A stretch of DNA of 64,000 nt, taken from positions 282-64,281 of the forward strand of contig JALSJE010000067.1 in the NCBI GenBank assembly GCA_026989495.1. Direction: 5' to 3'. This document shows, piece after piece, positions 19,731 to 55,366 of the stretch. Source of the DNA: Gammaproteobacteria bacterium. Lineage in GTDB: Bacteria; Pseudomonadota; Gammaproteobacteria; S144-34. Positions within the stretch are counted from its first letter, which is position 1. The number at the start of each line of letters is the position of its first letter. The position numbers and the translations under genes are program-made. The notes beneath the pieces were generated by a model, which saw only the letters and a program-made list of their open reading frames with translations, was not told the origin of the DNA and searched no databases.

Positions 19731-19892
19731 AGATCTGAAAAATTCGATTTTTCAGACCTTTCCCGCGGCCAGGGACGGCCGCGGGACGGTTCATGCACAG
19801 GGAAGTGCATGACGACAACCGAAAAATCGAAATGGACCGCGAAGCGCCATAGCGCTGATCGATCCGCGCAGCGGATTGATCAGAGTTTCCAG
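19731..19892 (+). repeat. 165-bp multi-hairpin intergenic repeat, copy A
   Basis: Carries CTGAAAAATtCGATTTTTCAG, CCGCGGCCagggacGGCCGCGG, CATGCACagggaagGTGCATG and CTGATCGATCCGCgcaGCGGATTGATCAG. Nearly identical to the copies at 26529, 27829 and (inverted) 55222. Confidence 0.8.
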
Positions 19893-19910
19893 AAAGGGGA
19901 GGCTGAAGGC

Positions 19911-21353
19911 CTACGGCCGCCGGAGCCGGCCGGCCAGGCTGACGAGGACGGCGGCGGCCAACGCCGCGAAGAAGCCGGGCGCCAGCTCGTAGAGGTCGAA
20001 CCAGCCACCCTCGAGCCGCTTCCATACGATCACAGTGAGGCCGCCCGCGAGCATGCCGGCGAGCGTCCCCGCGCGGCTCAGGCGCGGCCACCACACCGCG
20101 AGCAGGAGCACGGGCCCGAAGGTGGCCCCGAAGCCCGCCCAGGCGTAGGCGACCATGTCGAGCACGCGGCTTGCCGGATCCTGCGCGAGCGCCGCCGCCA
20201 CCACCGCCACGGCCGCCACGGTCGCGCGCCCCATCCACACGAGCTCGCGCGCGCCCGCGCACGGGCGCAGGAAGGCGCGGTAGAAGTCCTCGGTGAGCGC
20301 CGAGGCCGCGACCAGGAGCTGCGAGTCGGCGGTGCTCATGATGGCGGCGAGCACCGCCGCGAGCAGCGCCCCGGCGACGAAGGGATGAAAGACCACCTGC
20401 ACCAGCCGGAGGAAGACCTTCTCCGTGTCGGCGCCTGCGAGCGGCGGCTCGAGGTGGCCGATGCCCGCGAGCCCCACCAGCACCGCGCCGGCGAGGGTGA
20501 GGGTGACCCAGCCCATGGCGATGCGCCGTGCGGGCACGAGCTCCGCCGCCTCGCGCACGGCCATGAAGCGCGCGAGGATGTGCGGCTGGCCGAAGTAGCC
20601 CAGACCCCAGGCCAGCAGCGACAGCAGGGCCACCATCCCCAGGGGCTCGCCGCCGGCCCGGGTCCAGGGATCGAGCAGCGCCGCATCACGCGCCGCCACC
20701 GCCGCCATGGCCGCATCCCATCCGCCCTGGGCCTGCACGGCCGCGAGCGGCGCGGCGATCAGGGCCACGAGCATGAGCAGCCCCTGCACCACGTCCGTCC
20801 ATGACACCGCGAAGAAGCCCCCGAGCAGCGTGTAGGCCACGATCACCGCGCCGCCGGCGAGCACGGCCGCCGTATAGGACAGCCCGAAGACGCTCTCGAA
20901 GAGCTTCCCGCCCGCGGCCAGCCCCGAGGCCGTGTAAAGGGTGAAGAAAAGCAGGATGAAGCCCGCCGCGACCACCCGCAGCAGCGGGTCGCCGCCGAAG
21001 CGCGCCGCGAGGAACTCGGGCAGGGTGAGGGCATCGCCGGCCGCGGCCGTGGCCTCGCGCAGCCGCGCGGCGAGCAGACGCCAGTTGAGCCAGGTGCCCG
21101 CGAGCAGCCCGAGCGCGATCCAGGCCGCCTCCAGCCCCGCGGCGTAGGCGTAGCCAGGCAGGCCCAGCAGCAGCCAGCCGCTCATGTCCGAGGCCTCGGC
21201 CGAGAGCGCCGTCACCCAGCGCCCCAGGCGCCGCCCGCCCAGCAGGTAGTCCGCAAGATCGCGCGTGCGCCGCCAGGCCCACAGCCCGATGGCGAGCATC
21301 CCGGCGAGATAGAGCACGAAGGCGGCGACGACGGCAGGGTCGCTGGCGCGCAC
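19911..21353 (-). CDS. putP: sodium/proline symporter PutP (SSS family)
   Basis: Strong match to PutP, e.g. YLLGGRRLGRWVTALSAEASDMSGWLLLGLPG. The proposed start is the GTG at 21353, chosen by alignment to the PutP N-terminus; the track ORF extends to 21422. Start is uncertain. Confidence 0.75.
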   Translation of the reverse strand: MRASDPAVVAAFVLYLAGMLAIGLWAWRRTRDLADYLLGGRRLGRWVTALSAEASDMSGWLLLGLPGYAYAAGLEAAWIALGLLAGTWLNWRLLAARLREATAAAGDALTLPEFLAARFGGDPLLRVVAAGFILLFFTLYTASGLAAGGKLFESVFGLSYTAAVLAGGAVIVAYTLLGGFFAVSWTDVVQGLLMLVALIAAPLAAVQAQGGWDAAMAAVAARDAALLDPWTRAGGEPLGMVALLSLLAWGLGYFGQPHILARFMAVREAAELVPARRIAMGWVTLTLAGAVLVGLAGIGHLEPPLAGADTEKVFLRLVQVVFHPFVAGALLAAVLAAIMSTADSQLLVAASALTEDFYRAFLRPCAGARELVWMGRATVAAVAVVAAALAQDPASRVLDMVAYAWAGFGATFGPVLLLAVWWPRLSRAGTLAGMLAGGLTVIVWKRLEGGWFDLYELAPGFFAALAAAVLVSLAGRLRRP

Positions 21354-21430
21354 GCGGCTCCTCCGGCGCTGGAAAACCGCGCCGAAGTCTGCCAGATTGC
21401 GCCCGTCCCGGGCCACCGGCATATCCGAAC

Positions 21431-22432
21431 GTGGAGATACGCGCCTTCCGCATCGAGGAAACCCCGGAGGGGCCGCGCGGGCGGCTCGTCACCCTGCCCG
21501 CCGCGCGGCTCACACCGGGCGCGGTGCAGGTGCGCGTGCTCTGGTCGAGCGTCAACTACAAGGACGCGCTCGCGGGCACCGGTCGCGCGCCCATCCTGCG
21601 CCGCTACCCGCTCAACGGGGGCATCGACGCCGCCGGCGTCGTGGCCGCCTCCGAGGACCCGCGCTTCCGCCCGGGCGACCGCGTCGTCGTCACCGGCTGC
21701 GGCCTGAGCGAGACCCGCGACGGCGGCTTCGCCGAGCGGATCAACGTGCCCCCGGAATGCGTGGTGCCCCTGCCCGAAGGGCTCACGCTGCGCGAGGCCA
21801 TGGCCATCGGCACGGCCGGCTTCACGGTGGCGCTCGCCCTCCAGCGCCTGGAGGCCGTGGGCCTCACCCCGGCCCACGGCCCCTTCGTGGTCACCGGCGC
21901 CACCGGGGGCGTGGGCATGCTCGCCGTGGACATCCTCGCGGGCGCCGGCTTCGAGGTGGTCGCGGTCACCGGCAAGCCCGAGCGCGCCGAGGCGCTGCGG
22001 GCCCTCGGCGCCGCCGAGGTGCTGGACCGCCGTACGCTCGACCTCGGCACCCGGCCGCTGGAGCAGGCGCGCTGGGGCGGCGCCCTGGACAACGTGGGCG
22101 GGGAGCTCCTGGGCTGGCTCTCGCGCACCGTGCGCCCCTGGGGCGCCATCGCGTCCGTCGGGCTCGCCGGCGGAATGGAGCTCCGCACCACCGTCATGCC
22201 CTTCATCCTGCGCGGCATCAGCCTCGTGGGGGTGAGCTCGGCCAACTGCCCCGCCGAATGGCGCGCGCGGCTGTGGGCGCGGCTCGCCGGCCCCCTGCGC
22301 CCCCGCCACCTGGACCGCATCGTCACGGGCGCCGTGACGCTCGAGGGGCTGCCCGAGGTGTTCGAGGCCATGCTTGCCGGCCGCCACGTGGGCCGCACCC
22401 TCGTGCGCGTGGCCCCCGGCGACGAGGATTGA
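21431..22432 (+). CDS. acuI: acrylyl-CoA reductase AcuI/YhdH-like zinc-independent MDR oxidoreductase
   Basis: 333 aa with YhdH-family motifs (VRVLWSSVNYKDALA; GATGGVGMLAVDIL). Confidence 0.7.
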   Translation: MEIRAFRIEETPEGPRGRLVTLPAARLTPGAVQVRVLWSSVNYKDALAGTGRAPILRRYPLNGGIDAAGVVAASEDPRFRPGDRVVVTGCGLSETRDGGFAERINVPPECVVPLPEGLTLREAMAIGTAGFTVALALQRLEAVGLTPAHGPFVVTGATGGVGMLAVDILAGAGFEVVAVTGKPERAEALRALGAAEVLDRRTLDLGTRPLEQARWGGALDNVGGELLGWLSRTVRPWGAIASVGLAGGMELRTTVMPFILRGISLVGVSSANCPAEWRARLWARLAGPLRPRHLDRIVTGAVTLEGLPEVFEAMLAGRHVGRTLVRVAPGDED

Positions 22433-24328: not shown

Positions 24329-24601
24329 ATGGACACCCACAGCTACATGGTGCGGGTCGACGGGCGCGGCCGGGTCGTGCTGCCGGCAGCGCTGCGTGAG
24401 CGGCTCGGGCTCCACCGCGGCGACACCCTGGTGCTGAGCGTCGAGACGGACGGCACCGTCCGGCTGCTGAACCCGGCGGAAGCCGCCCGTGCCGGCCGGG
24501 GGCTGCTGCGCAGGCTCGCCCCCGCCGCCCGCCGGCGCTCCCTGGCGAAGGAGCTCATCGCCGAGCGGCGGGCGGAGGCGCGCCGTGAGCGCCGTCCTTG
24601 A
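24329..24601 (+). CDS. vapB: AbrB/MazE/SpoVT-family antitoxin (VapB-like)
   Basis: 90 aa. The N-terminal swapped-hairpin motif VRVDGRGRVVLPAALRERLGLHRGDTLVLSV; overlaps the downstream PIN gene. Confidence 0.65.
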   Translation: MDTHSYMVRVDGRGRVVLPAALRERLGLHRGDTLVLSVETDGTVRLLNPAEAARAGRGLLRRLAPAARRRSLAKELIAERRAEARRERRP

Positions 24602-24983
24602 CGCCTCGGCGCCGCTCGCCTACCTGAACGACGAGCCGGGAGCGCGCCGCGTGGAGGCCGTCCTCGCCGAAGGTGCCGTCATCGGTGCCGCCAACTGGGC
24701 GGAGGTGCTGTCCAGGGTCTCGGACGCCGGTATCGCCCCTCCCCGGCTGGTCGCCGAGCTCACGGAAGCCGGTCTGGTCGGCACGGCGCTCCGGATCGAG
24801 CCCTTGCTGCCGGTCGACGGCGAGCGGATCGTCGGGCTGCGTCCCGTCACCCGCCGGCAAGGGCTCTCGCTCGGCGACCGCGCCTGCCTGGCGTTGGCGC
24901 TACGGCTGCAGGCGCCGGTGCTCACCACGGATCGCACGTGGGGTCGCCTGCGGCTGCCTCTCGAGATCGTGACCCTTCGCTGA
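24585..24983 (+). CDS. vapC: PIN-domain toxin VapC
   Basis: GTG start at 24585 (VSAVLDASAPLAYLNDE...) with acidic PIN residues (D6, E, D...TTD). Forms an overlapping TA pair. Confidence 0.65.
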   Translation: MSAVLDASAPLAYLNDEPGARRVEAVLAEGAVIGAANWAEVLSRVSDAGIAPPRLVAELTEAGLVGTALRIEPLLPVDGERIVGLRPVTRRQGLSLGDRACLALALRLQAPVLTTDRTWGRLRLPLEIVTLR

Positions 24984-25398: not shown

Positions 25399-26523
25399 TC
25401 AGCCCCCCGCGAGCCAGCGGCCCACGGCCGTGCCCAGGAAGGTGCCGCCGGCGTAGCCCAGCGTCCCGCAGAGCACCGCGGGTGTCACCAGGCCCCGCCA
25501 GCCGGCCGCACTCGCCATCGCCGCCGCCGTGGTGGGCCCGCCCGCGTTGGCGTTGGAGGCCACCACCACCTCGCGCAGGTCCAGCCGCAGCAGCCGGCCC
25601 GCGAGCAGGATCACGGCCAGGTGCACCGCGAGCACCGTGCCGGCGAAGGCGAGCAGCGCAGGACCCGCCCGCAGCACCGTGCCCACGTGGGCGCTCGCGC
25701 CGATGGCGGCGAAGAAGACCTGCATCAGCAGCACGCCGATGCGCTCCGCATCCGCCAGCCGCCGCGCCGCGTCCGGCGCGAGCGTGGCGAAGGCGACCGC
25801 CAGCGCCGTCAGCCACAGCACGGCGCTCCCCCGCAGTCCCGTGAGGGCCTCGAGCGCATAGCCCGCCGCGCACGCGGCGGCCGCGAGCGCGAGCGCCGCC
25901 GCGGCCGGCAGCGGCCCGGGGAGGGCCGCCTCCGCGCCCCTCATCCCGCCGTCGCCCTCGACGCCCGGCCGGTCCGGGTAGCGCCGCCGCAGGGCGCGCA
26001 CCCCGGGCAGGGCGAACAGCACCACGAACAGCACCGTCATGAGCAGGTTGTCCGCCGCCATGCCGGCGGCGAGCAGGCCCGCATCATGCAGGCCCAGCGC
26101 CTCGGCGGTGGCCACATAGTTCATGGAGCCGCCCGTGTAGGTGGCGGTGAAGACGCCCGCGAGCCGCGCCGCCTCAGGGACGGGCACCAGCGCATGGGCG
26201 GCGAGCGCCCCCAGCACCGTGCCCGCGGCGCCGGCCACGTAGGCCGCGAGCAGCGGGCCCGCCTCGCGCACGATGCGCCGCAGGTCCGCGCGCAGGAGCA
26301 GCAGCGGGATGGCGAGCGGAACCAGCCACTGCCACACGCGGTCGTAGATCGGTGAGGCGGCGGGGATCAGCCCCAGGTTGGAGAGGGCGAAGGTCGCAGC
26401 GATGGCCACCACCGGGGCGGACAGGCGCGCGCCCCAACGTGTGCCCTCGGCCCATAGCCCGAAGGCCCCGGCGCCCAGGAGCACCGCCCACAGGCCCCAT
26501 TCGGATGCGATTCCTGCGCTCAT
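25399..26523 (-). CDS. DUF819-family integral membrane protein (putative transporter)
   Basis: Start MSAGIASEWGLWAVLLGAG at 26523. The track ORF extends into repeat copy B, and the extension was rejected. Polytopic membrane protein. Confidence 0.6.
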   Translation of the reverse strand: MSAGIASEWGLWAVLLGAGAFGLWAEGTRWGARLSAPVVAIAATFALSNLGLIPAASPIYDRVWQWLVPLAIPLLLLRADLRRIVREAGPLLAAYVAGAAGTVLGALAAHALVPVPEAARLAGVFTATYTGGSMNYVATAEALGLHDAGLLAAGMAADNLLMTVLFVVLFALPGVRALRRRYPDRPGVEGDGGMRGAEAALPGPLPAAAALALAAAACAAGYALEALTGLRGSAVLWLTALAVAFATLAPDAARRLADAERIGVLLMQVFFAAIGASAHVGTVLRAGPALLAFAGTVLAVHLAVILLAGRLLRLDLREVVVASNANAGGPTTAAAMASAAGWRGLVTPAVLCGTLGYAGGTFLGTAVGRWLAGG

Positions 26524-26528
26524 ACAGA

Positions 26529-26694
26529 TGGACGGTCTGAAAAATCCCGATTTTTCAGACCGTCCCCGCGGCCAGGGACGGCCGCGGGACGGCCCATGCA
26601 CAGGGAAGTGCATGACAACTTGGAGAAAAATCGAATGGACCGCGAAGCACTATCGCGCTGATCGATCCGCGCAGCGGATTGATCAGAGATTCCA
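26529..26694 (+). repeat. 165-bp multi-hairpin intergenic repeat, copy B
   Basis: Begins with a perfect 17-bp-stem hairpin, GGACGGTCTGAAAAATCccGATTTTTCAGACCGTCC, followed by the CCGCGGCC, CATGCAC and GATCGATC hairpins. Confidence 0.8.
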
Positions 26695-26810
26695 GATGCT
26701 TGCGGTGTGTGTTTCATGTGAGGGCGGAGCTTGCCTGCAAGCCGCGCATCTGGCAAGGTTCCGCCTTCGCTACCAGGCGGCCCACGAGAAGGAAAAGGCA
26801 GGAGGCCGGC

Positions 26811-27725: not shown

Positions 27726-27828
27726 CTGCCACCGTCCCGCTTCCCGAGGCGCAGGCCGTTCCCCCGCTCACGTGTGCCGCTTGCTTGACGATAGACACCC
27801 GATACGCTTTACTCCTCAGTAAAGCAAT

Positions 27829-27995
27829 TGGAAGGACTGAAAAATCACGATTTTTCAGCCCTTCCCCGCGGCCACGGACGGCCGCGGGACGGCCCATGCA
27901 CAGGGAAGTGCATGACGACACGTGAAAAATCGAAATGGACCGCGAAACACTATCGCGCTGATCGATCCGCGCAGCGGATCGATCAGCGTTTCCAA
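27829..27995 (+). repeat. 165-bp multi-hairpin intergenic repeat, copy C
   Basis: GGAAGGaCTGAAAAATCacGATTTTTCAGcCCTTCC, then CCGCGGCCacggacGGCCGCGG, CATGCACagggaagGTGCATG and the GATCGATC hairpin. Ends 24 nt before vapB-2. Confidence 0.8.
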
Positions 27996-28019
27996 TTCCG
28001 TCCACGAAGGCACACGGCC

Positions 28020-28250
28020 ATGCCCACCGCCCGCCTGAGCAGCAAGTCGCAGATCGTGATCCCGGCGGCCATCCGCAGGCGGCTGGGACTGTCCCCGGGC
28101 GATCTCCTGGAGATCAGCCAGGAAGGCGACAGGATCGTCCTGAGGAAGGTCCGGCGATCGGCGCTCGAGTCGCTGGAGCGGGTCGGCGGACCGCTCTGGC
28201 GTGGGTACGCGAACGAGCTGGTGCGTGCCCGGGACGAATGGGACGGCTGA
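28020..28250 (+). CDS. vapB: AbrB/MazE-type antitoxin (VapB-like), module 2
   Basis: 76 aa. MPTARLSSKSQIVIPAAIRRRLGLSPGDLLEI is a SpoVT/AbrB swapped-hairpin. Overlaps the PIN gene. Confidence 0.65.
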   Translation: MPTARLSSKSQIVIPAAIRRRLGLSPGDLLEISQEGDRIVLRKVRRSALESLERVGGPLWRGYANELVRARDEWDG

Positions 28251-28699
28251 CCCCTCCGGAGATCCCCGCCGGCTCCCTGGTGGGCATCGACACCGTCGCG
28301 TGGATCCACCTGCTGGAGCGCCACCCCGTGCACCACGGGACGGCGCATGCGTTCTTCGCCCGCCTGGAGGCGGGCGAGGTGCGTGGCGTGATCTCGACGC
28401 TGGTGCTGGCCGAGCTCCTGGTGCCAGCTTACCGGGATGGCGACCCGGAGCGTGCAGCCGAGCTGGTCCGGGTCCTCGAACGGTTTCCCAACCTCCACAT
28501 CGTGGGGCTCGACGGCGCCATCGCCGCCCGTGCCGCCGAGCTCCGGGCCCGCTATGGGCTGCGGACCCCGGACGCGATCCACTGCGCCACCGCCATCCGC
28601 TCCGGATGCGACGTGTTCCTCACGAACGACGCGAAGCTGCGCAGCGTCTCGCCGGAACTGTCCGTCTGCCTGTTCGAGGGAGAGACGCGGCCCGCATGA
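28238..28699 (+). CDS. vapC: PIN-domain toxin VapC, module 2
   Basis: 153 aa with GIDTVAWIHLLE...LVLAELL...FLTNDAKL (PIN acidic quartet). Confidence 0.7.
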   Translation: MGRLTPPEIPAGSLVGIDTVAWIHLLERHPVHHGTAHAFFARLEAGEVRGVISTLVLAELLVPAYRDGDPERAAELVRVLERFPNLHIVGLDGAIAARAAELRARYGLRTPDAIHCATAIRSGCDVFLTNDAKLRSVSPELSVCLFEGETRPA

Positions 28700-28786: not shown

Positions 28787-30097
28787 CTACGGCACCCCGC
28801 GGACCGTGACCCGCAGGAAGTGGGTGGCGCAGGAGATGCACGGATCGTAGTTGCGCACCACCCGCTCGGCCGCGGCGCGCAGGGTGTCCGGGTCGCGGTC
28901 GAGGCCCAGCGCCTCCAGGCTCGCGCGCAGGTCCTGCTCGATGTGGGCCTGGTTCTGGCTCGTGGGCGGCACGATGCGCGCGGCGCGCACCGTGCCGTCG
29001 CCGGCGACCTCGTAGCGGTGCCAGAGCACCCCGCGCGGGGCTTCCGTCGCCCACACGGCCACACCTGCGCGCGGCGCGGGCTCGGCGAAGGGCCGCTCCG
29101 GCACCTCGTATCCGTCCAGCAGGTCGGCGGCTTCGGCCACCGCATGCAGCACCTCCACCGCCCGCACCACGATGGCGTCGTGCAGGCTGCGCACCGGCAG
29201 CGCAAGCCCCGTGCGCGCCAGGGCCGCGCGCGCCACGGGATGGAGCCGCTCGTGGTTCAGGTTGAGCCGCGCCACCGGCCCCGTGAGGTAGGGCGCGCCG
29301 TCCAGCAGGGCATGCAGCGCGGTCGAGTGCGGCACCTGCCGCTCGGCGACGTGACGCTCAAAGCCGTCGAAGGCGAAGGCGTGGCCCTCGGTGCTGGCGA
29401 GCCCGCCGTCGTTCATGGGGTATTCCTCCGGATGCCGCAGCGCGAGACAGCGCAGCGGCGGCGCGTCCGCGGGCGCGGCCGGGCGGTCGAGCGAGGCGGT
29501 CCAGGCCACCAGGGCCTCGGCCTCGGGCACGGCGTCGGCCAGGCGCGCGCGCAGGGCGGCGACCGCATCCGCCCCGGGGGCGGCGTGGAAGCCGCCCACG
29601 CGCACGCCCACGGGGTGCACCGAGCGCCCGCCGAAGAGCGCGATCAGGTCGTTGCCGAGCGCCTGCAACGCCAACCCCCGGCGCACGGCCTCGGGCGCCC
29701 GCCGCGAGAGCTCGACCACGCTGTCGCAGCCCAGGAAGTCCGGCGCCGCCAGCAGGTGGATGTGCAGGCTGTGGCTCTGGATCCACTCGCCGCAGTAGAG
29801 CACGCGCCGCATGCGCCGCACCCACGGCCCCGGATCGCAGCCGAACAAGGCCTCGAAGGCATGCACGGCGCTCATCTGGTAGGCCACGGGGCAGATGCCG
29901 CAGATGCGCGCCACGAGGTCCGGCACCTCCTCGAAGGTACGCCCTTCCAGCAGCCGCTCGAACAGGCGCGGGGGCTCGTAGATGCGCAGCCGCAGCGCAC
30001 GGATGCGGCCCGCGGCCACCCCGATCTCCAGCGCACCCTCCCCCTCCACGCGGGTGAGCGCCGGCACCTCGATATGCAGCTCGCGCTCATCGGCCAT
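28787..30097 (-). CDS. hyhL: [NiFe]-hydrogenase large (alpha) subunit, cytoplasmic group 3b-like (sulfhydrogenase type)
   Basis: 436 aa. N-terminal RICGICPVAY (L1 Ni-binding CxxC) and C-terminal DPCISCATH (L2 CxxC...H). Confidence 0.85.
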   Translation of the reverse strand: MADERELHIEVPALTRVEGEGALEIGVAAGRIRALRLRIYEPPRLFERLLEGRTFEEVPDLVARICGICPVAYQMSAVHAFEALFGCDPGPWVRRMRRVLYCGEWIQSHSLHIHLLAAPDFLGCDSVVELSRRAPEAVRRGLALQALGNDLIALFGGRSVHPVGVRVGGFHAAPGADAVAALRARLADAVPEAEALVAWTASLDRPAAPADAPPLRCLALRHPEEYPMNDGGLASTEGHAFAFDGFERHVAERQVPHSTALHALLDGAPYLTGPVARLNLNHERLHPVARAALARTGLALPVRSLHDAIVVRAVEVLHAVAEAADLLDGYEVPERPFAEPAPRAGVAVWATEAPRGVLWHRYEVAGDGTVRAARIVPPTSQNQAHIEQDLRASLEALGLDRDPDTLRAAAERVVRNYDPCISCATHFLRVTVRGVP

Positions 30098-30917
30098 CGC
30101 CGTCCTCCTCCCCGACCTGGCGCAGCGCCGCCTGCTGGAAGGCCGGCACGCCGGCGTGGATCGCGAGCAGCCGTCGGCGCACGGCCGCGGCGTCCAGCCC
30201 CAGCGCGCGCAGGCGCGCCGCCAGCGCGCCCGCCTCCGGCAGCTCCGAGGGGCCGAAGCAGCCGTAGCAGCCCCGGCCCAGACCCGGACACAGCGCCCCG
30301 CAGCCCGCCGCCGTCACGGGGCCCAGGCAGGGCTCGCCGCGCGACACCATCACGCAGGCGAGGCCTGCGCGCTTGCACTCGAGGCACAGCTTCTCGTGCC
30401 GGGGCGCCGGCAGGGCGCCGCGCAGGAGCGAGGCCACGGTCTCCGTCACGGCCCGGGTCGTGACGGGGCAGCCCGCGAGCTCCAGGTCCACGGCCACGTG
30501 CGCCCGCACGGGCGCGGACTCCGGCAGCACGTGCACCCGGTCCGGCTCCGGGTAGGTGCGCGCCACCCAGCCGCCGGCGTCGGCCAGGTTGCGCAGGGCC
30601 TGCACCCCGCCCGTGGTGGCGCAGGCGCCGATCGCCACCAGCACGCGCGCGCGCTCGCGCACGGCGCGGATGCGCTCGGCCTCCTCGGAGGTGCCGATGC
30701 TACCCTCGACGAAGGCCACGTCCACACGCGCGTCCGGATCGTCGAGCCCGGCCTCGAGGAAGTGGACGAGCTCCACCGCCTCGGCGAGCGCCAGCAACGC
30801 CGGCCCCGCGTTGAGGAAGGCGAGCTGGCAGCCGTCGCAGGAGCCGAACTTGTGCACCGCCACGCGCAGCCGCGCCGCGCCGTCGGAGAAACCAGCCCCC
30901 GGCTCCCGACGGTCCAT
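30087..30917 (-). CDS. hyhS: [NiFe]-hydrogenase small (delta) subunit, group 3b-like
   Basis: 276 aa. NuoB-like proximal cluster motif HKFGSCDGCQ plus further Cys clusters (CLECK...; CGALCPGLGRGCYGCFGP). Confidence 0.8.
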   Translation of the reverse strand: MDRREPGAGFSDGAARLRVAVHKFGSCDGCQLAFLNAGPALLALAEAVELVHFLEAGLDDPDARVDVAFVEGSIGTSEEAERIRAVRERARVLVAIGACATTGGVQALRNLADAGGWVARTYPEPDRVHVLPESAPVRAHVAVDLELAGCPVTTRAVTETVASLLRGALPAPRHEKLCLECKRAGLACVMVSRGEPCLGPVTAAGCGALCPGLGRGCYGCFGPSELPEAGALAARLRALGLDAAAVRRRLLAIHAGVPAFQQAALRQVGEEDGDGR

Positions 30918-30918
30918 C

Positions 30919-31753
30919 TCAGAACCCCCTCACGCCCAGCAGCGGGCGGATCCGGTCGTAGCGGAACACGGGCCCGTCGCGGCACACGAACCAGGGCCCG
31001 ATCTGGCAGTGCCCGCAGCGGCCCAGGGCGCACTGCATGTTGCGCTCCATGCTGAGGTGGATGGCCGCCGCGGGCACGCCCAGCGCCTCCAGCCGGCGCG
31101 CGGCCGCGATCATCATGGGCTCGGGCCCGCACATGAGCACGGTGCAGCGGCCGCGGTCGAAGCGGGCCCCCTCCAGCAGCTCCGTCACCGGACCCACGTT
31201 CCACGGCCAGTCGCCGCCGGCCACGTCCGCGGCGAGCAGCACCTGCACGTCGGGCTCGCGCGCCCAGGCCTCGTACTGCGCGCGCCAGATGAGGTCCTCG
31301 GCGTGCTTGACGCCCTGCATCACCACCAGCCGCCCGTAGTCCCGGCGGCGGTGCAGCACGTAGCGGACCGCCCCCACCACCGGGGCGCAGCCGAGGCCGC
31401 CTGCGAGCACCACCACGTCGCCGCCCCGGGCCGCCTCCAGCGGCCAGCCACGCCCGAAGGGCCCGCGCACGCCGAGACGCGCGCCCACGGGCAGCCGCGC
31501 GAGCGCCCGCGTGACGCGCCCCACCATGCGCACCGTGTGGCCGAGGAAGGTGTCGTGGTCCGGGTCGGAGGAGATGGAGATCGGCACCTCCCCCACCCCG
31601 GGCAGGTGGAGCATGTTGAACTGGCCCGGCGCGAAGCGGAAGGCCGCCTGCCGCGCCGGGTCCTCCAGCTCGAGGCGCAGGGTGACGATGGTGGGCGACT
31701 CCTGCACCCGCCCGGCCACGCGCGCGGGCACGGGAAGGTCGATGCCGGGCACG
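30919..31753 (-). CDS. hyhG: sulfhydrogenase gamma-like subunit (FNR-like FAD/NAD(P)H domain with C-terminal 2Fe-2S)
   Basis: In-frame part of ORF 30919..32463, GTG start at about 31753. RFAPGQFNML, GGLGCAPV and a C-terminal CALGRCGHCQ. Confidence 0.7.
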
Positions 31754-31756
31754 GGC

Positions 31757-32845
31757 TCAGGCGTCGCCAACGATCGCCTCCATCTCCTCGACGAGGTCGA
31801 TGGCCGCCGGGCACCAGGCGATGCAGCGCCCGCAGCCCACGCATCCGGAGCGGCCGTATTGCGCATGCCAGGCGCCGAGCTTGTGGGTGAGCCACTGGCG
31901 GTAGCGGCTGCGGGCGTCCGGCCGCAGCACGATGCCGTGGATATAGCTGTGGCCCTCGGTGAAACAGGAGCTCCAGCGGCGCACGCGCGCGCTGGAGCCG
32001 TCGAGCCCCGGCCGCTCCTCGGCGGCATGGCAGAAGCAGGTGGGGCAGACGGCGGTGCAGCTCCCGCAGGCGAGGCAGCGCTCACCCACCTGCGCCCAGC
32101 GCGGATGGTCCAGCCGCTCGAAGAGCCGCGCCTGCAGCGGGCCTTCCGGCAGCCGGCGGGTCTGGGCCGCTGCGGCCGCCGCCACCTCGGTGCGGGCCCG
32201 CTCGGCGGCGCCGGCCGGCGGGGCCTCCAGCGGCAGCGCCGCAAGGAGCCGCTCGCCCGCCGCGCCCGCCGCCTCCACCAGCCAGCCCTCCTCCAGCTCC
32301 CACAGGGCGAGGTCGTGGCCCTCGCGCGCCTCGGGCCCGTCCCCCGTGGAGGCGCAGAAGCAGGTCGCCGCCGGGTGGGTGCAGTGCACCGCCACCAGGA
32401 GCAGCCCCGACCGCCGCGCCGCGTACCAGGGATCCTCGCGACCCGGGCGCAGGAAGTGCGCATCCAGGAGGGCGAGGGCGGCGAGGTCGCAGGCGCGCAC
32501 GCCGATCACGGCCGTGGGCGGAGGCGCCTCGGGCGCCTGCGGCGCGGGCCGGCCGTCCGCGTCCGTGCGCCACAGGGTCTCCTCGGGGGCGAACAGGAGC
32601 GGCTTGAGCGCCTGGGGGCCGTTGGCCCAGGCGAAGGCGCGCCCTTCGCCCGTGCGCCGCAGGCGCCAGCGGCCCGCATCCGCCTCCACGCGCACACCCC
32701 AGGGGAGCGCGGCGGCCTCCCCGAGCGGGCCGTAGCGGATGATCCCGTCGGCGACCTGGGGGCCCACCACGCGGTAGCCGGCCTCGCGGAGCGTCGCGAG
32801 CAAGGCGTCGGCCCGCTGCAGGGGCAGCCATCCGGGCTCAGGCAC
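31757..32845 (-). CDS. hyhB: sulfhydrogenase beta-like subunit (4Fe-4S dicluster)
   Basis: 362 aa with CLACGSCTAVCPTCFC and CVGCGRCIAWCP ferredoxin-like motifs. Confidence 0.75.
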   Translation of the reverse strand: MPEPGWLPLQRADALLATLREAGYRVVGPQVADGIIRYGPLGEAAALPWGVRVEADAGRWRLRRTGEGRAFAWANGPQALKPLLFAPEETLWRTDADGRPAPQAPEAPPPTAVIGVRACDLAALALLDAHFLRPGREDPWYAARRSGLLLVAVHCTHPAATCFCASTGDGPEAREGHDLALWELEEGWLVEAAGAAGERLLAALPLEAPPAGAAERARTEVAAAAAAQTRRLPEGPLQARLFERLDHPRWAQVGERCLACGSCTAVCPTCFCHAAEERPGLDGSSARVRRWSSCFTEGHSYIHGIVLRPDARSRYRQWLTHKLGAWHAQYGRSGCVGCGRCIAWCPAAIDLVEEMEAIVGDA

Positions 32846-33362
32846 GGCCAGGGCCTCCTCCGCTCCGCCCCAGGCGGGCGAGCAGCTCGAGCACGCGGGC
32901 GGCGGCCCGGGCGGCCACCGCGTCCAGCCCGTCCGAGGCCGGCATGCCGGGCTCGCACCAGGCCGCGTCCACGCCGACGCCTAGCACATGCGCCGCGCGC
33001 AGGCGGCCCGCGGCCCGCGCCGTCTCCAGCACCTCGGCGAGCCCCACCCCGTGGCTCGACAGCGCCGCCGGTCCGCGCCGGAGCCGCTCGGGCGGAAGCT
33101 CCACGACCGCCCCCGCGGGAATGCCCTCGGCGGCGTCCACGACGACGGCCAGGACCGCGTCGGCGAGCCCCGGCAGGAGCGTGCCCGGCGCCCCGGCCCG
33201 CACGACGGGCACATCCGGGCGGCGGTCCGCGACGACCTCCACCACCCGCCACCCCACGACGTCGTCGCCGTGCGGGCTGCCCAGCCCCGCCACCAGCACG
33301 CCGGGGCGCCTGTCCGCCGCCGGCGCCGTGGGCGTGCCTCCGTTCCTCCCGTCTCCTGTCAC
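32838..33362 (-). CDS. hydrogenase maturation endopeptidase (HycI/HoxW family)
   Basis: 174 aa with VLVAGLGSPHGDDVVGW at the N-terminus. Lies between hyhB and hypE. Confidence 0.55.
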   Translation of the reverse strand: MTGDGRNGGTPTAPAADRRPGVLVAGLGSPHGDDVVGWRVVEVVADRRPDVPVVRAGAPGTLLPGLADAVLAVVVDAAEGIPAGAVVELPPERLRRGPAALSSHGVGLAEVLETARAAGRLRAAHVLGVGVDAAWCEPGMPASDGLDAVAARAAARVLELLARLGRSGGGPGRA

Positions 33363-33381
33363 ACGAGGCCCCTTCTCCCGC

Positions 33382-34392
33382 TCAGCAGATCCTCGGCAGG
33401 GGGTCGTCCTCGAGCTCCTCGAGGGCGCGCTCGCCCCCGAGGGCGGTCTCCAGCGCCACCGGCACGGCCTGCCCCGCCACCACCGTGCCGATGCAGGCCG
33501 CCTCGGCGCCCTCGGGCAGCGCTTGCCAGGCGGCGAGCGCCGCCTCGGCCGCCTCCGGCGCCGCCACCGCCACTACGCGCCCCTCGCAGGCCAGGTACAG
33601 GGGATCGTAGCCCAGCATCTCGCACACGGCGCGCACCGGCTCGCGCACGGGGATGGCGGCCTCCTCGAGCCGCACGCCGAGGCCGGTCGCGCGCGCGATC
33701 TCGTGGCAGACGGTGGCCAGCCCCCCGCGCGTGGGATCGCGCAGGAAACGGACACCGGGCAGCGCGCGCACCGCACGCGCAAGCGGCAGCACGCTCGCGC
33801 AGTCCGAGGCCAGGTCGCCGCGCAGGCCGAACTGCTCGCGCGCCAGCATCACCGCCACGCCGTGGTCGCCCACCGGCCCGCTCACCAGCACCCGGTCGCC
33901 GGGGCGGACAAGCGCGAGATCCAGGACGATCCCCGACGGACGCAGACCGAGTCCGGTCACCGTGAAGTAGAGGCCGCCCCCCTCGCCGCGGCGCACGACC
34001 TTGGTGTCGCCGGCGGCCACGCGCACGCCCGCCGCGCGCGCCGCCCGCGCGAAGGCGGCCACGTGCCGGCGCAGATCCTCGATCGCGAAGCCCTCCTCCA
34101 CCAGCACGCCCAGGGTCAGGTAGCGCGGATCGGCGCCGGCGACGGCGAGGTCGTTCACGGTGCCGTGGACGGCGAGGGCGCCGATGTCGCCGCCGGGGAA
34201 GCTCAGGGGCTGGACCGTGAAGCCGTCGGTGGTCACCACGAGCCCGCCCTCGCCCGGCCACGGAACCGCGGCCGCGTCCGCCCGGCTGTCCACCAGGAGC
34301 GCCCCCAGCTCCGCGGCGAAGACGGTCTCGATCAGCTCGCGCATGAGGCGGCCGCCGTTGCCGTGGGCGAGCCCGATGCGCGCCGCGTCCAC
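33382..34392 (-). CDS. hypE: hydrogenase maturation protein HypE
   Basis: AIR-synthase-like fold ending in the diagnostic PRIC C-terminus. The GTG start at 34392 (after the hypF stop) was chosen; the track ORF extends to 34491. Confidence 0.8.
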   Translation of the reverse strand: MDAARIGLAHGNGGRLMRELIETVFAAELGALLVDSRADAAAVPWPGEGGLVVTTDGFTVQPLSFPGGDIGALAVHGTVNDLAVAGADPRYLTLGVLVEEGFAIEDLRRHVAAFARAARAAGVRVAAGDTKVVRRGEGGGLYFTVTGLGLRPSGIVLDLALVRPGDRVLVSGPVGDHGVAVMLAREQFGLRGDLASDCASVLPLARAVRALPGVRFLRDPTRGGLATVCHEIARATGLGVRLEEAAIPVREPVRAVCEMLGYDPLYLACEGRVVAVAAPEAAEAALAAWQALPEGAEAACIGTVVAGQAVPVALETALGGERALEELEDDPLPRIC

Positions 34393-34396
34393 CGCC

Positions 34397-36745: not shown

Positions 36746-36803
36746 CTTCGGTGGCCGGGTTTCGTGCGGCAGACACGCGCTCTGGAACTCGGTGGCCGTG
36801 CGG

Positions 36804-36976
36804 CGCTCCCCGCACCTGCGCGCTCCGCGCGCCCGTGTCCGCGCCGCCCGCCCTGCCGGGGTCCCAGCCTGCACCTCGGGGTTCGGGCAACGCGGCAAGG
36901 CTCAGCCTCCCCGCCTGCGGGCGCTGCGCCGCTCCCCGCGCCTGCGCGCTCCGCGCGCCCGTGTCCGCGCCGCCCG
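36804..36976. repeat. two copies of a 47-bp direct repeat (36804-36850 and 36930-36976) in the hypD-hypF intergenic region
   Basis: cgctccccgcAcctgcgcgctccgcgcgcccgtgtccgcgccgcccg versus cgctccccgcGcctgcgcgctccgcgcgcccgtgtccgcgccgcccg (1 mismatch), spaced 126 bp apart. Confidence 0.7.
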
Positions 36977-36998
36977 GTCCGCGCACATCCGTCGCAGC

Positions 36999-38273: not shown

Positions 38274-38298
38274 ATCCACCGTCCACCGTCCACCGTCA
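38274..38298. repeat. (CACCGTC)x3 tandem microsatellite between hypD start and hypB stop
   Basis: tccatccaccgtccaccgtccaccgtcaacc. Confidence 0.4.
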
Positions 38299-39036
38299 AC
38301 CCCTCACCAAGGCACGCAGCCAGCCGAGCCAGCGTTCCATGCCCTCGCCGGTGCGGGCCGAGACCGGCCACACCGGCGCGCCGCTGGCGAGCGCGCGCAG
38401 GTGGCGCTCGGCCGCGGCCGGGTCGAAGTCGTCCAGCACCGGGATCAGGTCCGCCTTGCTGAGCAGCACCAGATCGGCCGCCCGGAACATGACGGGGTAC
38501 TTGGCGGGCTTGTCGTCGCCCTCGGTGGCCGAGAGCAGCACCACGCTGCGGTGCTGGCCCAGGTCGAAGCCCGCCGGGCAGACCAGGTTGCCCACGTTCT
38601 CGATGAAGAGGAGGTCCAGCCCCTCGAGGTCGAGGCGGTGCAGGGCCTCGTGGACCAGATGGGCGTCCAGATGGCATGCCGAGCCGGTGGCGATCTGGAC
38701 GGCGGGCACACCCCTGGCGCGGATGCGCGTGGCGTCACGCTCGGTGGCGAGATCGCCCTCGATCACGGCGATGGCGAGCTCGCCCGCGAGCGCCTCGATC
38801 GTCGCCTCCAGCAGCGCCGTCTTGCCCGAGCCCGGCGCGGACATGAGGTTCACCGCCACCACGCCGTGGCGCGCCAGGTGCGCGCGGTTGTGGGCGGCGG
38901 CACGGTCGTTGGCCGCGAGCAGCCCCTCCAGCACCTCCACCGCCGTGCTTCCGTCGGCGGTGCGCGCGAGCGGTCCGTCCGCCTCCACCAGGTGGGCGTT
39001 GCCGGAGGTCACGTTGCAGCCGCAGCTCTCACACAT
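38296..39036 (-). CDS. hypB: hydrogenase nickel-incorporation GTPase HypB
   Basis: N-terminal metal-binding MCESCGC, P-loop SAPGSGKT, and G-domain motifs. Confidence 0.85.
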   Translation of the reverse strand: MCESCGCNVTSGNAHLVEADGPLARTADGSTAVEVLEGLLAANDRAAAHNRAHLARHGVVAVNLMSAPGSGKTALLEATIEALAGELAIAVIEGDLATERDATRIRARGVPAVQIATGSACHLDAHLVHEALHRLDLEGLDLLFIENVGNLVCPAGFDLGQHRSVVLLSATEGDDKPAKYPVMFRAADLVLLSKADLIPVLDDFDPAAAERHLRALASGAPVWPVSARTGEGMERWLGWLRALVRG

Positions 39037-39406
39037 GGGCGCCCTCCTCCGCAGGCGTGATGCCTGCGAGCGCCACGCGCACCAGCAGCAGCTCGTCGCC
39101 GGAGACGAGCCGCGTGCGCCAGCCGCCGCAGGCCGGGCACAGCAGGCGGTTCGGCGCCGCCGCAGGCCCGCGCGTGCCGCAAGACTCGCACTCGACCTCC
39201 AGCGGGACCTCCACCAGCCGAAGCTCGGCGCCCTCGGCCACGGTGCCCGCGCGCGCCAGCGCGAAGGCCTCGCGCAGCAGCTCGGGCACCACCCCGGAGA
39301 GCGGGCCCACGCGCAGCTCGATGCGGGTCACGGTACGCGCACCGTGGGCGCGGGCGACGGCCTCGACCTGCCCGATCAGGGCCCGGCACACAGTGAGCTC
39401 ATGCAT
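39029..39406 (-). CDS. hypA: hydrogenase nickel-insertion protein HypA
   Basis: MHELTVCRALIGQVE at the N-terminus and a zinc site CESCG...CPACG. Overlaps hypB (ATGTGTGA). Confidence 0.75.
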   Translation of the reverse strand: MHELTVCRALIGQVEAVARAHGARTVTRIELRVGPLSGVVPELLREAFALARAGTVAEGAELRLVEVPLEVECESCGTRGPAAAPNRLLCPACGGWRTRLVSGDELLLVRVALAGITPAEEGAHV

Positions 39407-54521: not shown

Positions 54522-54552
54522 GCAGGCCCTGAACTCGTACAGAGGCGACACA

Positions 54553-55200
54553 ATGGAGGAGCCCCGCATGCGCCGTCGCAAGCTGCACACGATCGCCGCG
54601 CCATGCCTCGCCCTTTCCCTGTGGGCCCCGCCCGGCGGCGGCGCCGAGCCCGCCCTCACCAAAGGCCTGACGGCCGTGCATCCCCCGGTCCCGGCGCCGG
54701 ACTTCACGCTGAAGGACATGGACGGCAAGGCCCACCGGCTCGCCGGTTGGCGCGGCAAGGCCGTGATCCTGAATTTCTGGGCCACCTGGTGCCCGCCCTG
54801 CCGCAAGGAGATGCCATCCATGGAGCGCGCCTGGCGCAAGCTGCGGGAGGAGAAGGCGCCGGTGGTGCTGGTAGCGGTCAACGTGGGCGAGGACGCCGAC
54901 ACCATCTTCGGCTTCACCGCGCAAATGGATCTGAGCTTCCCTATCCTGCTCGACGAGCGCTCCGAGGTGGCCGACCGCTACCGCCAGCTCACGGGCATCG
55001 GGACCATGGCCTTGCCCACCACCTTCGTGATCGATCCCGAGGGACGCGTCGTGTACCGGGCCGTAGGCGGGCGCGAGTGGGACGACCCCGCCCTGCTCGC
55101 GCGTGTGCGCGCCCTGGTGCCCCCTGGCGCAGGCGACACGGCGCCGGCGCCCGGCGCGCCGACCGTCGAGCCCGCTCCCGCGTCACGCCGCCCCGGCTGA
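54553..55200 (+). CDS. TlpA/ResA-family periplasmic thiol:disulfide interchange protein
   Basis: Signal peptide, WCPPC active site, thioredoxin fold. The ATG at 54553 or 54568 is the likely start; the track ORF begins earlier. Confidence 0.75.
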   Translation: MEEPRMRRRKLHTIAAPCLALSLWAPPGGGAEPALTKGLTAVHPPVPAPDFTLKDMDGKAHRLAGWRGKAVILNFWATWCPPCRKEMPSMERAWRKLREEKAPVVLVAVNVGEDADTIFGFTAQMDLSFPILLDERSEVADRYRQLTGIGTMALPTTFVIDPEGRVVYRAVGGREWDDPALLARVRALVPPGAGDTAPAPGAPTVEPAPASRRPG

Positions 55201-55221
55201 TGCGTGCGCCTCCCGTGATGG

Positions 55222-55366
55222 AAAAGGAAACGCTGATCAATCCGCTGCTCGGATCGATCAGCGCGATAGTGCTTCGCGGTCCATTCTGATTTTCCTTGAG
55301 TCGTCATGCACTTCCCTGTGCATGGACCGTCCCGCGGCCGTCCCTGGCCGCGGGGAAGGCGATCGA
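55222..55366 (-). repeat. multi-hairpin intergenic repeat, copy D (inverted, lacking the TGAAAAATC hairpin)
   Basis: Reverse-complement of the core: ...CTGATCAATCCGCtgcTCGGATCGATCAG...CATGCACttccctGTGCATG...CCGCGGCCgtccctGGCCGCGG. Confidence 0.75.

What the first reader, a model, noticed from the sequence alone, without database searches (positions are those of the whole stretch)
19731..55366. Family of about 165-bp intergenic repeats built from four consecutive hairpins (4 copies in 36 kb)
Seen:
- Copies lie at 19731-19892, 26529-26694, 27829-27995 (all + orientation) and 55222-55366 (inverted, missing the first hairpin).
- Each has hairpin 1 CTGAAAAATC..GATTTTTCAG (strikingly AT-rich in 70%-GC DNA), hairpin 2 CCGCGGCC-agggac-GGCCGCGG, hairpin 3 CATGCAC-agggaag-GTGCATG, and hairpin 4 CTGATCGATCCGC-gca-GCGGATTGATCAG.
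- All copies are strictly intergenic.
- They generate recurrent fake ORF peptides (MHFPVHGPSRGRPWPRG... and ...RPRDGPCTGKCMTT...) in the six-frame track.

Inference: a REP/BIME-like element, a MITE, or a structured small RNA family. I do not recognise it as a named element.
Basis: seen in the sequence. Interest (0 to 1): 0.7.

Follow-up and report, generated by a model that had tools for sequence, protein, structure and literature searches.

The report
New miniature transposon (MITE) family
The four repeats are real copies of a previously undescribed 164-bp miniature transposon (MITE) that has multiplied in the intergenic DNA of uncultured, very GC-rich proteobacteria; this is an ordinary kind of element, although two of its hairpins look like binding sites for the RNA regulator CsrA.

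Summary
The window holds three full copies (19728-19890, 26530-26693, 27830-27993, all +) and one 5'-truncated copy (55226-55359, -). All are intergenic, and none matches an Rfam family at its gathering score.

Related DNA shows what the element is. About 95 copies turned up in roughly 0.8 Mb of related metagenome and MAG contigs. Each is bounded by imperfect 17-nt terminal inverted repeats: GGAAGGTCTGAAAAATC at the 5' end, and GGAAACTCTGATCAATC as the reverse complement of the 3' end.
- 33 of 80 full copies have a perfect 4-bp flanking duplication, against 1.0 expected by permutation. All three full window copies have one.
- The target is AT-rich with a palindromic consensus.
- Two orthologous empty sites exist.

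It is therefore a MITE. Its ends resemble E. coli IS5 (first 7 of 7 bases identical, same 4-bp duplication). No autonomous partner or transposase was found.

Three extras:
- Hairpin 1 keeps its pairing through many compensatory variants.
- Between co-directional genes the element is co-oriented with them 25:7.
- Hairpins 2 and 3 carry ANGGAN-type loops 28 nt apart. This resembles a dual CsrA site and gives a sub-threshold Rfam hit to TwoAYGGAY. This reading is speculative.

Verdict: a new member of a known kind, of moderate interest.

The parts
19724..19727 (.). Target-site duplication AGAA, left of copy 1
   Evidence: Read directly. The same 4 nt recur at 19891-19894.
19728..19890 (+). MITE copy 1 (163 bp, full length), between Dus (-) and an SSF symporter (-)
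   Evidence: flanking genes.
19891..19894 (.). Target-site duplication AGAA, right of copy 1
26526..26529 (.). Target-site duplication AGAT, left of copy 2
26530..26693 (+). MITE copy 2 (164 bp, full length), in the divergent region between DUF819 (-, start 26523) and the RluA-like gene (+, start 26811)
26694..26697 (.). Target-site duplication AGAT, right of copy 2
26530..26546 (+). Left terminal inverted repeat (GGACGGTCTGAAAAATC in this copy; family consensus GGAAGGTCTGAAAAATC). It is also the 5' arm of hairpin 1.
   Evidence: 13 of 17 identical to the reverse complement of the right end; first 7 of 7 nt identical to the E. coli IS5 end.
26531..26564 (+). Hairpin 1: 15-bp palindrome made of the left terminal repeat and its inverted copy, with an AT-rich core
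   Evidence: Six pairs show changes on both sides; 11 distinct fully complementary arm variants.
26565..26588 (+). Hairpin 2: CCCGCGGCC-AGGGAC-GGCCGCGGG, with a hexaloop of the form A-N-GGA-Y
   Evidence: GGA is kept in 67 of 74 copies, while N is G, C, T or A.
26595..26614 (+). Hairpin 3: CATGCAC-AGGGAAG-GTGCATG
26642..26656 (+). Weak hairpin 5 (CGCG..CGCG), in the most variable part of the element
   Evidence: only 80% of cells paired.
26658..26686 (+). Hairpin 4: CTGATCGATCCGC-GCA-GCGGATTGATCAG, 13 bp, containing GATC sites. Its 3' arm overlaps the right terminal repeat.
26677..26693 (+). Right terminal inverted repeat (GATTGATCAGAGATTCC)
27826..27829 (.). Target-site duplication AATT, left of copy 3
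27830..27993 (+). MITE copy 3 (164 bp, full length), between the RluA-like gene end (27725) and the MazE-like antitoxin start (28020)
27994..27997 (.). Target-site duplication AATT, right of copy 3
55226..55359 (-). MITE copy 4, 5'-truncated (134 bp). It lacks hairpin 1 except CCTTCC. It lies after the redoxin gene (ends 55200), next to an ~860-nt stretch with no convincing gene.

Best explanation
The repeat is a non-autonomous DNA transposon, a MITE of about 164 bp with no coding capacity.

Shown by the data: a transposase makes 4-bp staggered cuts at AT-rich, roughly palindromic targets (AAnC-NNNN-GnWT). These cuts produce the flanking 4-bp duplications.

Inferred: the enzyme is a DDE transposase supplied in trans by an autonomous insertion sequence elsewhere in the genome. 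It recognises the imperfect 17-nt terminal inverted repeats. The parent is most likely from the IS5 group, because the terminal heptamer GGAAGGT and the 4-bp duplication length are the same as in E. coli IS5.

In a genome of about 72-75% G+C, AT-rich targets exist almost only near stop codons, promoters and ribosome-binding sites. Insertions inside genes would also be purged. Together these explain why the copies are strictly intergenic.

The four conspicuous hairpins are the element's internal anatomy. Hairpin 1 is the left terminal repeat folded against an inverted copy of itself. Hairpin 4 contains the right terminal repeat. Hairpins 2 and 3 are a conserved internal module.

The family has been active recently in a narrow lineage of uncultured high-GC proteobacteria, whose MAGs are labelled Gamma- or Alphaproteobacteria. 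It probably has on the order of 100 or more copies per genome.
For: - Terminal inverted repeats: the 5' end and the reverse complement of the 3' end are identical at 13 of 17 positions in the 80-copy consensus.
- Target-site duplications: 33 of 80 full copies have a perfect 4-bp direct repeat exactly at the element boundaries. Permutation gives a mean of 1.0 and a maximum of 5 in 1000. There are no 5-bp repeats, and shifted offsets give 0-2. A further 13 of 80 match at 3 of 4 positions.
- In 5 more cases a perfect duplication lies outside a duplicated terminal segment.
- All three full window copies have duplications: AGAA, AGAT and AATT.
- The duplicated sequences are diverse and 43% GC. The site consensus is palindromic around them, as expected for a symmetric transposase dimer.
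- Empty sites: L001 (MAG S144_34) and L024 (Ga0256839) are orthologous at about 85% identity, and each carries a copy that the other lacks.
- Copy number: about 95 nhmmer hits above 100 bits in roughly 0.8 Mb, 4 in this 64-kb window, and at least 75 loci in a single metagenome, Ga0256839.
- No copy lies inside a called gene.
- IS5 comparison made here: the E. coli IS5 ends read GGAAGGTGCGAA... and are flanked by the 4-bp duplication CTAA. The MITE's left end matches 7 of 7 terminal bases and 12 of 17 overall.
- The element meets the published MITE criteria: under 500 bp, terminal repeats of 4-30 bp, flanking direct repeats, AT-rich intergenic targets and stable stem-loops (PMC10969869).
Against: - No autonomous element with these ends, and no IS5-like transposase, was found in the window or in about 870 kb of related loci. 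Mobilisation in trans, and the family of the parent, are therefore inferred.
- The duplications do not follow the target preference I recall for IS5 (YTAR; CTAA in the one E. coli copy read).
- Simple neutral decay of a MITE does not predict three observations: the many compensatory variants of hairpin 1, the stems being 3-5 times less diverged than the linkers, and the 25:7 orientation bias. Something beyond transposase recognition constrains the element.
Confidence: 0.85

Rival explanations
1. The element is a MITE, but it is also used at the RNA level. Its sense transcript presents two stable hairpins with ANGGAN-type loops 28 nt apart, which would form a dual binding site for the translational regulator CsrA/RsmA. 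Copies would then tie neighbouring genes to the Csr regulon, or jointly titrate CsrA. This adds to the main explanation and does not exclude it.
For: - The hairpin 2 loop is A-N-GGA-Y. GGA is kept in 67 of 74 copies, while N takes all four bases.
- The hairpin 3 loop is AGGGAAG. In the 8 copies not selected by my search pattern, 3 of 9 changes fall on the N position.
- The GGA-to-GGA spacing of 28 nt lies within the published 10-63 nt bridging range, and the loops fit the published ANGGAN hexaloop and CAGGA(U/A/C)G motifs (PMC7652899).
- The only non-trivial Rfam hit aligns both hairpins to the two-hairpin core of TwoAYGGAY, RF01731. That family has been proposed to bind CsrA (PMC4333381).
- One host MAG encodes CsrA (Pfam E = 1e-25), with a copy abutting the lysC start upstream of csrA.
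- The element is co-oriented with co-directional flanking genes 25:7, or 19:3 when both genes are within 500 nt. This is expected if only the sense RNA matters.
Against: - The Rfam score is 23.3 bits against a gathering score of 43, and no copy in 20 loci reaches threshold.
- The stems show no excess of G.U over A.C (88 vs 72 cells; 15 vs 15 pairs). The pairing looks like that of a DNA palindrome, with no strand-specific RNA signal.
- The stems are 7-9 bp and GC-rich, whereas SELEX ligands mostly had 4 bp or fewer, and very stable stems may disfavour binding.
- The motif was recognised after the fact.
- Conservation of hairpin 3 is inflated because my search pattern lay inside it.
- There are no expression data, and csrA was not shown in the window's own organism.
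Confidence: 0.2
2. The element is a REP/BIME-type extragenic palindrome cluster, spread by a RAYT (IS200-like Y1) transposase.
For: It is intergenic, palindrome-rich, modular (copies lacking hairpin 1 or hairpins 1-2, and solo hairpin 4 fragments) and high in copy number.
Against: - The unit is a fixed 164-bp composite with terminal inverted repeats.
- It is flanked by variable 4-bp duplications. As I recall the published descriptions, REP and IS200/IS605-type elements do not generate these.
- No RAYT was seen, although the complete genomes could not be searched.
Confidence: 0.03
3. The element is a family of free-standing small RNA genes or cis-regulatory leaders that is not mobile and was duplicated along with its loci.
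For: The predicted fold is strong (z = -7.8), hairpin 1 covaries, and several copies end 3-60 nt upstream of a start codon.
Against: - Target-site duplications, empty sites and about 100 copies in unrelated gene contexts all point to mobility.
- The reverse strand folds just as well.
- No promoter-like or terminator-like site lies at the expected places.
- Copies also sit between convergent genes and antisense to both neighbours, as copy 1 does.
Confidence: 0.03
4. The element is a MITE, but its parent is a different IS family that also makes 4-bp duplications (for example IS701, IS1380, the IS407 group of IS3, or IS481), not the IS5 group.
For: No transposase was found. The targets differ from the YTAR preference I recall for IS5. 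Similarity of the ends beyond the first 7 nt is modest, at 12 of 17.
Against: The terminal GGAAGGT is identical to IS5, as read directly. From memory, IS3 and IS21 ends begin with TG and IS1380 ends with CC.
Confidence: 0.3

Closest known systems
Bacterial MITEs in general (for example Correia/NEMIS of Neisseria, ERIC of enterobacteria, RUP of pneumococcus, QMITE of Coxiella)
   Same: It is short (164 bp) and non-coding, with terminal inverted repeats, flanking target duplications and many copies. It inserts in AT-rich intergenic targets and is predicted to form very stable stem-loops (criteria from PMC10969869).
   Different: The sequence is unrelated to anything found in Rfam, plasmids or the literature. 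The left end is a perfect palindrome of the terminal repeat, with many compensatory variants. The hosts are uncultured bacteria of 72-75% G+C.
IS5 (IS5 family, IS5 group) of E. coli
   Same: The terminal heptamer GGAAGGT is identical, 12 of 17 end positions match, and the target duplication is 4 bp.
   Different: The MITE has no transposase gene. Its targets are AAnC-NNNN-GnWT with a variable duplicated sequence, compared with CTAA in the one IS5 copy read here. No IS5-like transposase was detected in the DNA available.
TwoAYGGAY RNA motif (Rfam RF01731) and CsrA-binding hairpins of CsrB/Rsm sRNAs
   Same: Two adjacent hairpins have GGA-containing loops of the form ANGGAN, and the spacing is compatible with dual-site CsrA binding.
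   Different: The score is 23.3 bits against a gathering score of 43, so it is not a member. The stems are much longer and more GC-rich. The module sits inside a mobile element present in about 100 copies, where TwoAYGGAY is a single sRNA locus. Binding is untested.
REP/BIME elements with RAYT transposases
   Same: Both are intergenic, palindromic, repeated and partly modular.
   Different: REPs are single palindromes of 20-40 nt without terminal inverted repeats or target duplications. This element has both.

Membership tests
[quoted passage not shown] | Small size (under about 500 bp) and no transposase gene | tested here: met
   The consensus is 164 bp. The only ORFs are spurious ones running through the repeat.
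MITE | Terminal inverted repeats | tested here: met
   GGAAGGTCTGAAAAATC against the reverse complement of the 3' end, GGAAACTCTGATCAATC: 13 of 17 identical.
MITE | Flanking target-site duplications of fixed length and variable sequence | tested here: met
   33 of 80 perfect 4-bp duplications against 1.0 expected; none at 5 bp; 28 different sequences. All 3 full window copies have one.
MITE | Multiple dispersed copies, with presence/absence differences at orthologous sites | tested here: met
   About 95 copies in roughly 0.8 Mb. L001 and L024 each carry a copy the other lacks.
MITE | A cognate autonomous IS with matching ends that supplies the transposase | tested here: inconclusive
   None was found in the window or in 870 kb of loci.
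IS5-group derivative | Ends resembling IS5 inverted repeats, and a 4-bp duplication | tested here: met
   E. coli IS5 was read directly: GGAAGGTGCGAA... flanked by CTAA on both sides. The MITE shares 7 of 7 terminal and 12 of 17 positions, and the 4-bp duplication length.
IS5-group derivative | Mobilised by a DDE_Tnp_1 (IS5-type) transposase | not testable with these tools
   tblastn with the IS5 transposase found nothing in the loci. The host genomes are not searchable here.
REP/BIME | Palindromic units of 20-40 nt, no terminal inverted repeats, no target duplication, associated RAYT | tested here: not met
   The unit is 164 bp with terminal repeats and 4-bp duplications. RAYT was not searched genome-wide.
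IS200/IS605-derived palindrome-associated element | Insertion next to a fixed tetra- or pentanucleotide, without duplication | tested here: not met
   The flanks are variable and duplicated on both sides.
Rfam TwoAYGGAY (RF01731) | Score at or above the curated gathering threshold (43 bits) | tested here: not met
   23.3 bits for copy 3. No copy in 20 loci reaches any gathering score.
CsrA/RsmA binding site | GGA in the loop of a hairpin (ANGGAN), usually two sites 10-63 nt apart | tested here: met
   The loops are AGGGAC and AGGGAAG, and the GGAs are 28 nt apart. Criteria are from PMC7652899. This is resemblance at the sequence level only.
CsrA/RsmA binding site | Physical binding by CsrA and a regulatory effect | not testable with these tools
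   This needs EMSA or CLIP and expression data. A csrA gene was shown only in MAG S012_21.

The most novel reading that the evidence does not exclude
A transposable element carries a ready-made dual CsrA/RsmA-binding module: two GGA-loop hairpins resembling the TwoAYGGAY core. It has scattered this module through roughly a hundred intergenic regions, preferentially in the sense orientation. Transposition would then rewire which operons respond to the Csr system, or create a distributed CsrA sponge. The palindromic left end, kept intact through many compensatory changes, would be a second feature under selection.
Probability: 0.2. Interest if true: 0.75.

Novelty: new member of a known kind. 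Interest (0 to 1): 0.4.

Why it matters
As a MITE, it matters in three practical ways:
- It explains recurrent spurious ORFs and repeat-induced assembly breaks in these high-GC vent MAGs.
- It gives a marker for recent genome dynamics in an uncultured lineage.
- It predicts an active IS5-like transposase in those genomes.

If the internal hairpins really bind CsrA, it would be an example of a mobile element distributing a post-transcriptional regulatory site across a genome. I found no paper linking CsrA sites to MITEs in one full-text search, and the idea can be tested directly with a purified protein and a 60-nt RNA.

Tried and rejected
- Rfam at gathering thresholds on the window and on 20 loci found only tRNAs. 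At permissive E-values the hits were chance miRNA-like matches to the palindromes plus the sub-threshold TwoAYGGAY hit.
- BLAST of the consensus and of hairpin 1 against 72,556 plasmids found nothing relevant.
- A full-text search for four diagnostic sequence strings found 0 papers.
- The viral contig scan gave one chance match in an AT-rich phage.
- I searched for an autonomous partner in three ways. A regex for terminal-repeat-like sequences outside known copies found only fragments and chance matches. tblastn with the E. coli IS5 transposase found nothing. Pfam on 19 window ORFs, including the lower-GC stretches, found no transposase.
- I first thought an excess of G.U over A.C at one hairpin 4 pair (26 vs 2) showed RNA-level selection on the sense strand. 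Counting all 48 pairs removed the effect (88 vs 72; 15 vs 15 pairs), so I dropped that argument.
- The promoter and terminator scan around copies 2 and 3 found no promoter-like site. It found one terminator-like site that depends on flanking sequence.
- I suspected that L008/L019 and L001/L003/L004 might be longer autonomous versions. They are a 3'-truncated copy and a diverged copy upstream of an ordinary gene.
- The 43-nt solo hairpin 4 palindrome in L076 is not flanked by a duplication, so it gives no evidence for a minimal mobile unit.
- Exact-protein look-ups for two window proteins found nothing. A third found a 99.9% identical contig (L103) that adds no new copies.

Full report

Yes. 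Reading the four places shows three full copies on the + strand and one 5'-truncated copy on the - strand. A four-way alignment has 80% mean column identity with long invariant blocks. The repeat finder recovers the same family.

The 21-mer of hairpin 3 and the 29-mer of hairpin 4 each occur four times in the window, against 0.00 expected from shuffles. Refined coordinates are 19728-19890, 26530-26693 and 27830-27993 (+), and 55226-55359 (-).

Flanking genes were checked with Pfam:
- Copy 1 lies between Dus and a sodium:solute symporter.
- Copy 2 lies between DUF819 and an RluA-like pseudouridine synthase.
- Copy 3 lies between that synthase and a MazE/PIN pair.
- Copy 4 follows a redoxin gene.

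All copies are therefore intergenic. The window is 74.5% G+C, has no tRNA and has no Rfam match at gathering score.

**2. The family outside the window**

An exact scan for the hairpin 3 core found 5 loci in three MAGs: 'Gammaproteobacteria bacterium' S144_34 and S012_21, and 'Alphaproteobacteria bacterium' 354-166. It also found 96 metagenome stretches.
- About 75 of the metagenome stretches are true copies. Nearly all come from one JGI metagenome (Ga0256839) and two sister samples.
- The rest are chance matches in AT-rich DNA.

A profile built from the window copies finds about 95 hits above 100 bits in roughly 0.8 Mb. These include second copies that lack the exact search word. Loci carrying copies average 72% G+C.

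The window itself matches only one other contig, at 99.9% identity (L103, ENA ERZ27262642).

**3. What it is: terminal repeats, target duplications, empty sites**

With 80 distinct full copies the boundaries are sharp: GGAAG...GTTTCC. The first 17 nt (GGAAGGTCTGAAAAATC) and the reverse complement of the last 17 nt (GGAAACTCTGATCAATC) agree at 13 of 17 positions.

The evidence for target-site duplication:
- Immediately outside the boundaries, 33 of 80 copies have a perfect 4-bp direct repeat.
- Pairing left and right flanks at random gives a mean of 1.0 and never more than 5 in 1000 trials.
- No copy has a 5-bp repeat, and shifted registers give 0-2.
- Thirteen more copies match at 3 of 4 positions.
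- In five further cases a perfect repeat lies just outside a duplicated terminal segment.
- The three full window copies carry AGAA, AGAT and AATT.

The duplicated tetramers are diverse (28 different sequences) and 43% G+C. The reconstructed target is AT-rich from -4 to +9, with a roughly palindromic preference AAnC-NNNN-GnWT. This is what a symmetric transposase dimer would produce.

L001 (MAG S144_34) and L024 (Ga0256839) are orthologous at about 85% identity. Each has a copy at a place where the other has uninterrupted sequence.

Small size, no gene, terminal inverted repeats, fixed-length variable duplications, high copy number and empty sites are the published defining features of a prokaryotic MITE (PMC10969869).

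**4. Probable parent**

I recalled that IS5 ends begin GGAAGG and make 4-bp duplications, and I checked this on an annotated E. coli copy. Its ends read GGAAGGTGCGAACAAG... and ...CTTATTCGCACCTTCC, flanked by CTAA on both sides. The MITE shares the terminal 7 of 7 bases, 12 of 17 overall, and the duplication length.

The transposase itself was not found. There are no terminal-repeat pairs around an ORF in the loci, no tblastn hit with the IS5 transposase, and no transposase among 19 window ORFs. Trans-mobilisation by an IS5-group enzyme is therefore an inference; I put it at about 0.5-0.6.

**5. Anatomy and unexplained constraints**

The consensus folds into hairpins 1-4 plus a weak fifth at -81 kcal/mol (z = -7.8). 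The reverse strand folds equally well.

On 74 copies, 95.7% of cells pair. Eleven pairs show changes on both sides, against 5.7 +/- 1.4 in shuffles and 3-8 in slid controls. Six of those pairs are in the outer stem of hairpin 1, where at least 11 different fully complementary arm combinations occur. Hairpins 2 and 3 hardly vary.

The stems are 2-5% diverged from consensus, and the linkers 14-22%.

The variable positions of hairpin 1 lie inside the left terminal repeat, so the transposase evidently tolerates them. Transposase recognition alone therefore does not explain why the two arms stay complementary. Two candidate explanations are selection for a hairpin (single-stranded DNA or RNA) and templated correction of quasi-palindromes during replication. 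I could not separate them.

Variants exist with a tandemly repeated left arm or a repeated 12-nt right terminus. In several of these the duplication lies outside the extra segment.

**6. Orientation**

I used simple GC3-based gene calls. Copies lying between two co-directional genes point the same way as those genes 25 times and the opposite way 7 times (p = 0.002). The ratio is 19:3 when both genes are within 500 nt.

The target consensus is symmetric, so this bias more likely reflects what survives after insertion than where the element lands. Many copies begin 0-15 nt after a stop codon or end 3-60 nt before a start codon.

**7. A possible RNA-level function (speculative)**

- In the sense strand, the hexaloop of hairpin 2 is A-N-GGA-Y. 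GGA is retained in 67 of 74 copies, while N is G, C, T or A.
- The hairpin 3 loop is AGGGAAG. In the eight copies not selected by my search word, three of nine changes hit the N position.
- The two GGAs are 28 nt apart.
- These are the published features of CsrA/RsmA sites: an ANGGAN hexaloop, CAGGA(U/A/C)G repeats, and bridging of sites 10-63 nt apart (PMC7652899).
- The only meaningful Rfam hit is a sub-threshold alignment of both hairpins to the two-hairpin core of TwoAYGGAY, at 23.3 bits against a gathering score of 43. That motif has been proposed to bind CsrA (PMC4333381).
- One host MAG (S012_21) encodes CsrA in a lysC-csrA-tRNA arrangement, with a copy abutting the lysC start.

Against this reading:
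- The score is below threshold.
- The stems are unusually long and GC-rich.
- The motif was spotted after the fact.
- Conservation of hairpin 3 is inflated by ascertainment.
- A test for sense-strand wobble pairs was negative, at 88 G.U against 72 A.C.

I give this reading about 0.2.

**8. Comparison and verdict**

The element works like, and qualifies as, a bacterial MITE. It is not a REP/BIME, because it has terminal repeats and duplications. It is not an IS200/IS605-type element, because its flanks are variable and duplicated. It is not a member of any Rfam family.

Its sequence has no match in Rfam, in the plasmid collection or in the searchable literature. It is therefore a new family of a well-known kind, confined as far as seen to a narrow group of uncultured high-GC proteobacteria.

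Interest is moderate at 0.4. The basic finding is ordinary. The compensated terminal palindrome, the orientation bias and the CsrA-like module are worth a follow-up.

Noticed in passing
window 19011-19067, 36794-36850, 36920-36976: A second repeat: a GC-rich unit of about 57 nt (..GCGGCGCTCCCCGC.CCTGCGCGCTCCGCGCGCCCGTGTCCGCGCCGCC..) in three copies. Two lie 126 nt apart at the HypF/HypD junction and one lies inside the Dus ORF region.
   Followed up: no
L004 25-148 and L014 (same insert): In two loci the MITE is interrupted between hairpins 2 and 3 by a GC-rich insert of about 125 nt (CGCGCCCACCGTGCGC...GCCCACGGCGC). This looks like another small mobile or repeated element nested in the MITE.
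   Followed up: no
L012 3384-3395, L046, L100, L036 (right ends); L065/L046, L005, L069, L057, L044, L019 (left ends): Some copies carry a tandem extra 12-nt right terminus (ATCAGAGTTTCC) or one to three extra left arms (GGAAGGnCTGAAAAATC..). In L012, L046 and L100 (right ends) and in L065 and L005 (left ends), the 4-bp duplication lies outside the extra segment, so the extra segment moved with the element. The origin is unexplained.
   Followed up: partly
L076 22-64; also L077 5826-5870, L071 9307-9342, L033 8082-8143: Solo hairpin 4 fragments. The L076 one is a perfect 43-nt palindrome with the right terminal repeat on both sides, but it has no flanking duplication.
   Followed up: partly
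window 55360-56058: Next to the truncated copy 4 there is a stretch of about 700-860 nt with no convincing gene. An ORF (55296-55751) looks to me like the N-terminus of an ArnT/PMT-type glycosyltransferase but has no Pfam hit even at E = 1. A deletion may have removed part of the gene and hairpin 1 together.
   Followed up: partly
window 24329-24983 and 28020-28699: Two MazE-antitoxin/PIN-toxin pairs lie within 4 kb, the second directly downstream of MITE copy 3 (gene table of L103).
   Followed up: no
window 28787-39327: A NiFe-hydrogenase and Hyp maturation cluster (large and small subunits, HycI-like protease, HypE, HypF, HypD, CobW/HypB-like) lies on the minus strand. This fits a hydrogen-oxidising lifestyle.
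   Followed up: no
L002 2041-4800: In MAG S012_21 a MITE copy ends exactly at the ATG of aspartokinase (lysC). This is followed by csrA and two tRNA genes. The copy has lost its last few bases, and no Shine-Dalgarno sequence is visible.
   Followed up: partly
window 26523-26530: The left end of MITE copy 2 lies only 6 nt upstream of the annotated ATG of the divergently transcribed DUF819 gene. This leaves no room for a ribosome-binding site, so either the true start is further downstream or the element supplies the 5' UTR.
   Followed up: no
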